DNA of 53,519 bases. Origin: Chromera velia. Its lineage: Eukaryota. This document shows, in pieces, positions 11,201 through 14,200 of the stretch. The position numbers were made by a program, and so were the translations under genes. The notes beneath the pieces were generated by a model, which was given only the letters and a program-made list of their open reading frames with translations, was not told the DNA's origin and did not search any database. The DNA lies in the NCBI GenBank assembly GCA_018398765.1, contig JAHBMJ010000220.1, positions 1 to 53,519 on the forward strand, written 5' to 3'. Position 1 is the first letter of the stretch. Every line of letters starts with the position of its first letter.

Positions 11201-14200
11201 TGCAGACACGATGGCGGTCTCTGAAGGAATGCAATCAAAAAAGCGGCAGGAGAACTCGGGATATTATGACCTCTTGTGCCCTGTCCTCGGATACGACAAA
11301 TCTGTTTTCCCTGAGAGCCCACCAAACCTCGTGTGAACGTGCATCAGCGCTCCATGGTCTCAACGTAAATGCAAGAATGAGCGTGTGTGTCTATGTGTGC
11401 GTCTTTGTCGATGTCTGTATGTGTGTGTGTGCAGGTTGATGTTCCCAGCTCTGTACCTGTTCACGGGTCCGGGCCGAGTCGTGCGGCCAGTGCGACATCT
11501 GGCCTCGCGGTGGTCGGTCGGTCAACAAGAAAGAAATGTCAAGAAAGAAGAAGAAGGGAAAACTGAAAGAATTTCGAATGAAAGGATGAAGACTGCAGCG
11601 GGTGGCAGCCTGATTTTCGTTTTTCATATTCCATGGTTCCTCCTTGTCCGTTTGAGCTCTTTCTTTCTTGCTGCTTGATTTTTCATCAAGGCTTATGCAG
11701 TCAGTTCTCTTCTCGTCAATTGAATGAGTGCATGCATGCACTGACTGACTGACGTGCAGCATCGAGTACATCGGCCCCCTTCAGCAACTGTTCCTCAACA
11801 TTGCCTGCGATGAGGTCCGTGTGAGTGAGTGAGTGAGTGAGGGAGTGAGTAGGTGGTTTTCTTACTGGCTCAGTGACTGGCTGAGTGAGAGAGTGACTGG
11901 CGGGGGGCATATCCACACACAGGGGTGGAAAGAGAAAGGGAAAACGAAAAGGAACGAAAACAGGACCCGGCTGGCAATCGAAAAATGTTCGTCTCTATAT
12001 CGCGTTGTATTTTTGCATTGAGACGATCTCCCTTGAAGACACGTACACGTCTGGCAGTACTCCGAGAAGGCAACCCTTCTGTACCGCTTCTCGAGTGCAT
12101 CTGTTGTTGCTTTCTGTCGCCTTCGTCTCTTGCATTGAGTTGAGCTTGTTTCAGCCTTTTCGTTCCGACGGTCCCTTTTTGAATTGAGTTTGGTTTTTCT
12201 CCGTCTATCAAGCCTGCGCTATCCGTCCATCTCAGGATTTGTTCGTTGACTTTTTTGTTTTCTTTCAAGACCCTTTTTTGTGCCTTCGGGGGACGGAAGG
12301 AGAAAATCCCGCCTTGTCTTTTTGAGGAGGTTGACGGTTTTCTGGTCCCTCTTTCCTTTCCATTCTTCCTCCGAATGCCCTCAGGCCGACAGGTTTCACT
12401 CCTGAAATAATTTTCACTGACAGACTCCAAACGATTTGGTCCTCTTGCTTCCTGCTGGACTCTCTCCGTTTTTGTGTTCATGGATCTACTTTTCGCTGAT
12501 TGCCGATTGCCACGTGGTTCTGTTCGTTTTTACCTCCGCTCCCCTTCTGTATGTGCACGTTGATTGATGCAGAAAGACATCGAGAGACTCCCCTTCTGTA
12601 TGTGCACGTTGATTGATGCAGAAAGACATCGAGAGGCAACGCTCTCCTTCTGTATGTGCACGTTGATTGATGCAGAAAGACATTGAGAGACTCTCCTTCT
12701 GTAGGTGCACGTTGATTGATGCAGAAAGACATCGAGAGACTCTCCTTCTGTATGTGCCTGTTGATTGATGCAGAAAGACATCGAGAGGCAACGCTCTCCT
12801 TCTGTATGTGCACGTTGACTGATGCAGAAAGACATCGAGAGGCAACGCTCTCCTTCTGTATGTGCACGTTGATTGATGCAGAAAGACATCGAGAGGCAAC
12901 GCTCTCCTTCTGTATGTGCACGTTGATTGATGCAGAAAGACATCGAGAGGCAACGCTCTCCTTCTGTATGTGCACGTTGATTGATGCAGAAAGACATCGA
13001 GAGGCAACGCTCTCCTTCTGTATGTGCACGTTGATTGATGCAGAAAGACATCGAGAGACTCTCCTTCTGTATGTGCACGTTGATTGATGCAGAAAGACAT
13101 CGAGAGACTCTCCTTGTGTATGTGCACGTTGATTGATGCAGAAAGACATCGAGAGGCAACGCTCTCCTTCTGTATGTGCACGTTGATTGATGCAGAAAGA
13201 CATCGAGAGGCAACGCTCTCCTTCTGTATGTGCACGTTGATTGATGCAGAAAGACATTGAGAGACTCTCATTCTGTATGTGCACGTTGATTGATGCAGAA
13301 AGACATCGAGAGACTCTCCTTCTGTATGTGCACGTTGATTGATGCAGAAAGACATCGAGAGACAACAGAGATGCACAGAGGCGGCGGAGGCGATCAGCAT
13401 CGTCCAGACGCCGTTCGCAAAGCGGTCTGTGAGGTGTTCTTTCTTGCTTGTCTCCTTTATTAGTTTCTCTTGGTCTCTGCCTCTCTCTCTGTCTCGGCCT
13501 CGATCTCTGTTTTCTTCACCAATGCCGCGTGTGTGCGCGCATTCTCCCGTCTTTGCTTCCTTCCATTTGTTCCATCGGAGAACACCCACTCGACCTCTCT
13601 CCAGGTCTCGGGGCAGAAGAGAAGAGAAGAGAGTAGAAGGGAATGGAAGCCTGGCCACCATGACGTGGGTCCATCAACTGAGACGACATCTTATTTTTAT
13701 GGTCTTGAGCAGACGAACAAACACCGGCTCCAGTTGGCTGTCCGAATCCCATGTGTGCGATCAATCGAGGCTTCTGAAGGTCGCATGGGGGGACATCTCA
13801 TTGCTGTGCGAGTGTCAATCTTGGTTGATTGTTTGCGTTGCTGAATTGAGTTTTTGTCCGCAGGTCTGCGGAGGTGATGGTGCGTGCAGAGGAGCTCGGG
13901 CTGGCGGATGATGAGATCGAGGCATTGGTGTCAGTCAGTCAGTCGGTCCTTTCTTTTTCTTTTTATTCGCTTATTGGAAGAAAAAGGGGGAAGGGTATTC
14001 AGAACACTGAAAAGTTTGCACTGATCGTCCGTCCCGTTCGGTGAAAATTCGTCTCAAAGAATGCGTAGGGAAAAGAGCAGGTTCTAGATGGAAGATGGTG
14101 GCGAGGAGAAGTAAAATGGCAGACTACCTCGCCCTGTTCTTCACTTTGGGGCCGCAAATGGAAGTTTTTTTTGCTCCCTTAAAAATTGGGTTTTTGTTTG

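What the first reader, a model, noticed from the sequence alone, without database searches (positions are those of the whole stretch)
12541..13424. Splice acceptor amplified 16 times inside an essential Pol I gene; each unit also carries a GTATGT donor-like site
Seen: the repeat unit is the intron-18 3' end plus the first ~14 nt of exon 19 (KDIER). Only the last AG (13347) leads directly into the exon my model needs; using the first AG hits TGA at 12684. Units parse as a 24-nt GTATGT..TGCAG mini-intron plus a 30-nt (in-frame, [10 protein letters not shown]) or 25-nt micro-exon. Inference: the cell must skip 15 near-identical acceptors, splice recursively, or include variable micro-exons in Pol I.
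Basis: partly seen in the sequence, partly recalled or inferred. Interest (0 to 1): 0.75.

Follow-up and report, generated by a model that had tools for sequence, protein, structure and literature searches.

The report
Sixteen-fold repeated splice acceptor in alga
In the alga Chromera velia the splice signal in front of one exon of an RNA polymerase I gene is repeated 16 times, yet the assembled mRNA uses only the last copy, so this is a repeat type already known from lancelets ("mirage"), here likely tolerated at the price of slower removal of that intron.

Summary
The array is real: 16 acceptors at 12537-13366, and the read depth of two DNA runs fits about that copy number. The gene is Chromera velia RPA2 (38 exons, exact match to a stored protein). 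In 4 of 4 RNA runs of one study the main transcript joins exon 18 straight to the last AG, with no micro-exon. The 24-nt mini-intron and recursive readings are not supported: the gene's introns are 212-1533 nt, GTATGT scores at the bottom of its donors, and the units lack AG|GT points. All 15 decoys would give early stops, so minor use hidden by decay or by contig cleaning is not excluded. The class is known: amphioxus 'mirages', human CBS 844ins68, F7 VNTR. Two extras: all three local duplications in this gene cover an acceptor in nearly the same register (introns 18, 22, 35), and introns 18 and 22 were the only ones of 16 examined with long RNA contigs listed in all four runs, a hint of slowed splicing, confounded by intron length. 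My paper searches found mirages described only in animals.

The parts
2213..24280 (+). RPA2 gene (RNA polymerase I second-largest subunit), 38 exons, 1432 aa
   Evidence: Exact spliced match to stored protein P0002, labelled Chromera velia CCMP2878 by UniRef; Pfam PF06883 Rpa2-specific domain E 1.3e-09; best hits named RPA2
11760..11814 (+). Exon 18 (55 nt); its donor opens intron 18
11815..13347 (+). Intron 18, 1533 nt (758 without the 15 extra units), removed whole in the main mRNA; unspliced RNA also seen
12537..13366 (+). Minisatellite of 16 copies of the intron-18/exon-19 boundary (49- and 54-nt units; about 33-35 nt of intron plus 16-19 nt of exon); 10 differences from consensus in 752 core letters
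   Evidence: DNA depth
12571..13298 (+). Fifteen decoy acceptors; use of any would end the protein at 720-826 aa of 1432
13346..13347 (+). The acceptor AG used in the main mRNA
   Evidence: RNA contig X3 record 17; 276-nt spacing in 4 of 4 runs
13348..13424 (+). Exon 19 (77 nt), needed for frame; start of a poorly conserved insertion
   Evidence: skipping ends the protein at 721 aa
15618..15762 (+). Second duplicated acceptor (intron 22/exon 23): 38-nt block, -27..+11, decoy AG ends 15644, 69-nt fold-back filler 15656-15724
   Evidence: intronic RNA contigs
22782..22938 (+). Third duplicated acceptor (intron 35/exon 36): 56-nt block, -41..+15, decoy AG ends 22822, 45-nt filler 22838-22882 with a 13-nt inverted repeat
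   Evidence: no RNA laid here

Best explanation
This is a 'mirage' minisatellite: 16 copies of the intron-18/exon-19 boundary of Chromera RPA2, of which the assembled mRNA uses only the last, likely because that copy alone is followed by a whole exon and its donor (exon definition), and likely at the cost of slower removal of the intron. Shown: the array, the gene model, the exon 18-to-last-AG joint in the main RNA contigs, and unspliced intron-18 RNA. Inferred: origin as one small tandem duplication at the boundary (break repair or slippage), growth by unequal exchange, tolerance because the last copy keeps an intact exon, cross-exon choice of the acceptor, and a splicing delay. The GTATGT in each unit is simply part of the copied intron end, not a working donor.
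For: Main contig of X3 runs 11759-11811, one letter, 13346-13423; 276 nt between exons 16 and 21 in X3, X4, X5, X6; joints on both sides of intron 18 carry the same contig depth in each run. All 16 acceptors score alike (6.9-8.4 bits), so local acceptor sequence does not pick the last one. Intron-18 RNA contigs in 4 of 4 runs at depth 9.6, 8.3, 5.0, 4.5/3.2 against mRNA 33.4, 43.6, 43.3, 33.3, while the bin inside intron 13 is 0 in all four and most bins of introns 14, 21, 23-25 have residuals near 0, which argues against DNA in the libraries. Array depth per copy in X3 (8.1) equals the upstream intron depth (9.6), so unspliced intron explains the array RNA without decoy use. Same anatomy and outcome described for amphioxus mirages (PMC3087553, PMC3902484; passages) and CBS 844ins68 (52 nt intron + 16 nt exon, distal site favoured; PMC7490669, PMC2630376; passages). 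An exon-centric proximity rule is described in PMC9225289 (passages).
Against: Only contigs, one RNA study; the joint itself is inferred from record coordinates because 11812-11858 was skipped as a repeat. Contig cleaning drops minor paths, and contig depth is a poor measure of level. The RNA runs differ from the window at 3 exon positions in all four runs, so they are probably another isolate or allele with unknown copy number. Introns 18 and 22 are also among the four longest of introns 13-28 (1533, 712, 711, 633 nt), so length alone may explain intronic RNA. Intron-22 RNA covers only the 3' ~500 nt, which plain retention does not predict. Exon definition was not tested, and the branch point could not be located (YTRAY 11 seen, 12.4 expected). 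Run X7 of another study does not cover the joint.
Confidence: 0.8

Rival explanations
1. Decoy acceptors are used at a real rate, but the products carry early stops and are destroyed by nonsense-mediated decay, so only the last-AG product accumulates; copy number would then tune RPA2 dose.
For: 15 of 15 decoys give stops at 720-826 aa, with many exon junctions downstream; acceptors are equal in score; between competing acceptors the upstream one is favoured under intron definition (PMC9225289, passage).
Against: No excess of array RNA over upstream-intron RNA in X3 (8.1 per copy versus 9.6), though copy number in that isolate is unknown. No decoy joint listed or 18 (the donor side was masked, so this is weak). 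With even use of 16 sites most transcripts would be lost. I found no statement on decay genes in Chromera (PMC5862402, passages).
Confidence: 0.1
2. RNA structure hides the decoys: each internal AG pairs with the next unit, leaving the last AG open.
For: The last AG is predicted the most open of 16 in 2 of 3 folding settings (0.55 versus 0.08-0.34; 0.39 versus 0.03-0.25).
Against: In the third setting a decoy is more open (0.35 versus 0.30); working acceptors of this gene have a median of 0.023, lower than most decoys; decoy and real sites in introns 22 and 35 do not differ.
Confidence: 0.04
3. In-frame 30-nt micro-exons are included as minor isoforms, or the intron is removed stepwise through the units.
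For: Any one of eight 30-nt pieces keeps the frame (1442 aa) and falls at the start of a variable insertion (mean identity of exons 19-21 to 12 relatives 0.04-0.07); one unit has a TAG|GT point at 12703.
Against: Absent from the main contig in 4 of 4 runs; donor score at the bottom of the gene's range and no intron under 212 nt; all 15 pieces together (415 nt) break the frame.
Confidence: 0.04
4. The array is an assembly artefact.
For: No listed piece spans it; one DNA run may be the assembly's source.
Against: Two DNA runs of two studies show unit depths that match the window's copy numbers for three k-mer classes each; the RNA runs, which differ from the window by several letters, also hold the unit at several-fold depth.
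Confidence: 0.02

Closest known systems
Amphioxus 'mirages' (Adh3, troponin C, globins BflGb6/BflGb9, PGBD5; PMC3087553 and PMC3902484, passages read)
   Same: Tandem repeats spanning an intron-exon boundary, BflGb6 on the acceptor side; units keep AG/GT signals; normal mRNA is made; near-identical units; unit length within the 10-160 bp range reported.
   Different: Here in an alveolate alga; 16 copies against 3-6 in BflGb6; three acceptor duplications in one gene in one register; a hint of unspliced intron RNA, whereas the papers say mirages do not disturb splicing; length instability not shown here.
Human CBS c.844_845ins68 (PMC7490669, PMC2630376; passages read)
   Same: Duplication of the last 52 nt of an intron and first 16 nt of the exon; the distal site is strongly favoured and normal mRNA results. 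Nearly the register of all three Chromera cases.
   Different: Two copies only; a human polymorphism; silencing is ascribed to G runs in a cited title (Romano 2010, seen only in a reference list); no G runs are evident in the Chromera unit.
Human F7 intron-7 37-bp VNTR (PMC1557585; abstract and Discussion read)
   Same: Five to nine identical splice sites, only the one attached to the whole exon is used; the unused sites are functional when freed.
   Different: Donor side, so 5'-to-3' scanning can explain it; at an acceptor array scanning would pick the first AG, the opposite of what is seen here.
Small tandem duplications from break repair, some with templated inserts (PMC5730883; passages read)
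   Same: 38-56 nt duplications; fold-back fillers at introns 22 and 35 fit in-cis templated inserts.
   Different: No known link to splice acceptors in what I read; origin here is inferred only.

Membership tests
Mirage minisatellite (as defined in PMC3087553) | [quoted passage not shown] | tested here: met
Mirage minisatellite (as defined in PMC3087553) | Units carry splice signals that could act as cryptic sites | tested here: met
   16 of 16 keep the AG; scores 6.9-8.4 bits, mid-range of the gene's acceptors
Mirage minisatellite (as defined in PMC3087553) | Regular mRNA is still produced | tested here: met
   Main contig normal in 4 of 4 RNA runs of one study; some unspliced intron RNA is also present
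Mirage minisatellite (as defined in PMC3087553) | Concerted evolution inside the cluster | tested here: met
   10 differences from consensus in 752 letters; the first two acceptors share a variant of their own
Mirage minisatellite (as defined in PMC3087553) | Length instability between haplotypes or cells | tested here: inconclusive
   Both DNA runs fit the window's copy numbers roughly; contigs cannot resolve alleles
Recursive splicing (definition recalled) | AG directly followed by GT at each ratchet point | tested here: not met
   GT lies 25 or 30 nt after the AG; one AGGT in the array, at 12703
Recursive splicing (definition recalled) | Intermediates or lariats at internal points | not testable with these tools
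   Only contigs were served
Micro-exon array / 24-nt mini-introns | Micro-exon sequence in mRNA | tested here: not met
   No extra letters in the main contig, 4 of 4 runs; minor isoforms invisible
Micro-exon array / 24-nt mini-introns | Donor and intron size within the organism's range | tested here: not met
   37 introns of this gene 212-1533 nt; donor score 2.7, as low as 1 of 37; one gene only
RNA polymerase I subunit RPA2 | Rpb2-type domains plus the Rpa2-specific domain | tested here: met
   PF00562, PF04563, PF04565, PF04560, PF06883

The most novel reading that the evidence does not exclude
Chromera has a genome-wide bias that duplicates the stretch from about -35 to +15 around splice acceptors (3 of 3 local duplications in this gene, none at donors, none purely intronic), and each duplicated acceptor measurably stalls removal of its intron; copy number of such arrays then acts as a heritable dial on mRNA output, here for RNA polymerase I. 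The genome would be a natural series of thousands of competing-acceptor experiments outside animals.
Probability: 0.2. Interest if true: 0.65.

Novelty: new member of a known kind. Interest (0 to 1): 0.36.

Why it matters
The array itself is a known kind. It matters modestly because it shows last-acceptor choice among 16 equal sites in a single-celled alga with introns of a few hundred bases, which points to cross-exon recognition far from animals (inferred), and because two side observations are cheap to test genome-wide with public data: whether small duplications cluster on acceptors, and whether duplicated acceptors slow splicing. If both hold, mirages are not neutral, and their cost per copy can be measured.

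Tried and rejected
No whole genome is held, so the acceptor bias rests on one gene. No run is on record as RNA; X3-X6 behave as spliced RNA because their contigs skip 15 introns at or next to GT..AG ends. X7 does not cover the joint. No relative of exon 21 among metagenome contigs: 596 pattern matches, 0 confirmed, so no orthologous locus to show the ancestral boundary. No Rfam family at 11700-16000. Branch-point motif YTRAY not enriched near 36 acceptors. RNA folding does not separate decoys from working acceptors. The two fillers match nothing else in the window beyond themselves and (TTCA)n-type runs, so no sign of a local mobile element. The uncovered 5' part of intron 22 and uncovered array bins are not taken as evidence of absence (repeat contigs are laid at one place only). 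Earlier-findings look-ups by place, by sequence and for Chromera gave nothing. Paper searches: Chromera + intron + splicing (20 of 48 listed, none on this topic by title or abstract start); VNTR/acceptor; minisatellite/splice site; mirages (the only listed papers using the word for this were two on amphioxus); intron retention + duplicated acceptor (0 papers). PMC4501334, PMC5862402, PMC12584245 and PMC3265369 were read as passages and say nothing on such arrays in those passages; supplements were not opened, and the original Adh3 paper was not available.

Full report
Observation. Tandem Repeats Finder gives a 16.0-copy array at 12537-13366. Parsing shows 16 acceptors, 15 spacers (8 of 54 nt, 7 of 49 nt), a GTATGT-type hexamer 24 nt before each AG, 25- or 30-nt pieces between AG and the next GT, and a stop at 12684 after the first AG. 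The shared 47-nt core differs from its consensus at 10 of 752 letters, so the array is young or homogenised.

Gene. Exon 2 retrieved a 1432-aa protein, P0002, at 100% identity, labelled Chromera velia CCMP2878 by UniRef. It maps exactly to 38 exons at 2213-24277 with GT..AG introns of 212-1533 nt, median 446. It carries the Rpa2-specific Pfam domain and its best named hits are RPA2 proteins. That RPA2 is essential is established knowledge from yeast, recalled, not tested here. Exon 19 (13348-13424) opens an insertion of 138 aa, against 54-103 aa in nine rows (six named apicomplexans, three unnamed) and 10-14 aa in two yeasts and a plant (13 of 120 listed proteins aligned). It is not conserved in sequence but is needed for frame: skipping it ends the protein at 721 aa.

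Is the array real? Two DNA runs of two studies hold the unit at depths that scale with the window's k-mer copy numbers: 18-21 per copy in X1 (flanks 15.5-21.5) and 30-38 in X2 (flanks 18.8-31.5). No piece spans the array and one run may be the assembly's source, so order and exact count remain open.

Which acceptor is used? In run X3 one 4507-nt contig runs through exon 17, exon 18 to 11811, one letter, then 13346-13423 and exon 20; that is the joint 11814 to 13348 (the tool skipped 11812-11858 as a repeat, so the joint is read from record coordinates). In X3, X4, X5 and X6 the main contig has exactly 276 nt between exon 16 and exon 21, the sum of exons 17-20. So the main mRNA uses the last AG and has no micro-exon, in 4 of 4 runs of one study; X7, of another study, does not cover the place. 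The runs are only guessed to be RNA by the tool, but they skip 15 introns. They differ from the window at three exon positions in all four runs, so they probably come from another isolate or allele, which also has the unit in several copies (depth 71.8 against 9.6 upstream). Contigs drop rare paths, so minor decoy or micro-exon use is not excluded. All 15 decoys would stop the protein at 720-826 aa; a single 30-nt piece would keep the frame.

Mini-introns and recursion. With a matrix from the gene's 37 donors the unit GT scores 2.7 bits; 1 of 37 real donors scores as low, 22% of 1226 internal GTs score as high, and no donor begins GTATGT. The shortest intron is 212 nt. There is one AGGT in the array. 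These readings are not supported.

Why the last copy? The 16 acceptors score 6.9-8.4 bits, 12572 and 13347 alike, so the choice must come from context. Folding makes the last AG the most open in 2 of 3 settings, but working acceptors of the gene are predicted less open than most decoys, so structure is not enough. What is unique to the last copy is the remaining 58-61 nt of exon and a donor 77 nt away. Cross-exon recognition is the simplest account and fits the exon-centric proximity rule in PMC9225289 (passages); it is inferred, not tested.

Two further observations. First, a scan of 1-46300 for local non-microsatellite direct repeats finds three inside the gene, and all three cover an acceptor: intron 18 (-33/-35 to +16/+19), intron 22 (-27 to +11) and intron 35 (-41 to +15); none covers a donor or is purely intronic. 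A block of that size covers an acceptor by chance with probability 0.07-0.10; leaving out intron 18, which was the reason for looking, the other two give about 0.007, or about 0.03 if donors count too. This is one gene and a post hoc test. The two-copy cases have fillers of 69 and 45 nt that fold back on themselves, as expected for break repair with templated inserts (PMC5730883, passages; inference). Second, among introns 13-28, long intronic RNA contigs are listed in all four runs only for introns 18 and 22 (depth 3-10 against mRNA 33-44), plus one piece with 5 differences in intron 28 of X5; in X4 the intron-22 contig runs across the acceptor into exon 23. Limits: table 8 showed 32 rows and hid 324; bins in introns 15, 17, 19, 26, 27 and 28/29 are filled by short matches from elsewhere; contig depth is a poor measure of level; the match of 2 of 16 introns (chance 1 in 120) falls to 1 in 6 among the four longest; and intron-22 RNA covers only its 3' ~500 nt. 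I read it as a hint that duplicated acceptors slow splicing.

Comparison with the known. Earlier notes of this scan pointed to amphioxus 'mirages'; I checked the term in PMC3087553 and PMC3902484 (passages): tandem repeats of intron-exon boundaries that keep splice signals, are homogenised, vary in length and leave normal mRNA. The Chromera array meets four of five features; length instability could not be resolved. Human CBS 844ins68 duplicates 52 nt of intron and 16 nt of exon with the distal site favoured (PMC7490669, PMC2630376; passages); the F7 VNTR is the donor-side mirror (PMC1557585; abstract, Discussion). In my searches I saw no case outside animals and no report of retention at such arrays; the library lacks most subscription papers.

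Verdict. Real, correctly described, and explained in the main: a new member of a known kind. The skip-15 reading is supported; recursion and micro-exons are not. Interest 0.36, carried by the unexplained clustering of duplications on acceptors and the retention hint, both testable with public data.

Noticed in passing
window 38383-39252, minus strand: 185-nt repeat, 4.7 copies; each unit holds an acceptor, a 60-nt exon-like piece with one open frame (leucine-rich, ALRLPRV...) and a donor: whole-exon tandem duplication in an unidentified gene or pseudogene.
   Followed up: partly
window 15250-15780: RNA contigs cover only the 3' part of intron 22, starting at the (TTCA)n/(GTCA)n run, in 3 of 4 runs exactly; could be a hidden alternative acceptor, an internal start, or a divergent allele.
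   Followed up: partly
window 10298, 10358, 14490, 11998-12296: The RNA runs differ from the window at fixed positions of mixed type (no editing pattern): probably another isolate or allele.
   Followed up: no
window 5906-5990: Exon-like stretch inside intron 5 (TGCAG followed by an open frame) that the stored protein does not include; possible unannotated or cassette exon.
   Followed up: no
window 46359-53519: 48-nt satellite, about 148 copies, running off the window end.
   Followed up: no
window 37257-37883: Inverted repeat with 284-nt arms, 89% complementary, 59 nt apart; fold-back element-like.
   Followed up: no
window 41722-41955, 30569-31039, 32526-32612, 1-204: Further tandem or local duplications outside the RPA2 gene (27 nt x 8.7; about 200 nt x 3; 33 nt x 2.7; 114 nt x 2).
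   Followed up: no
window 12703-12706: One unit carries a TAG|GT variant after a pyrimidine run, the only ratchet-like point in the array.
   Followed up: partly
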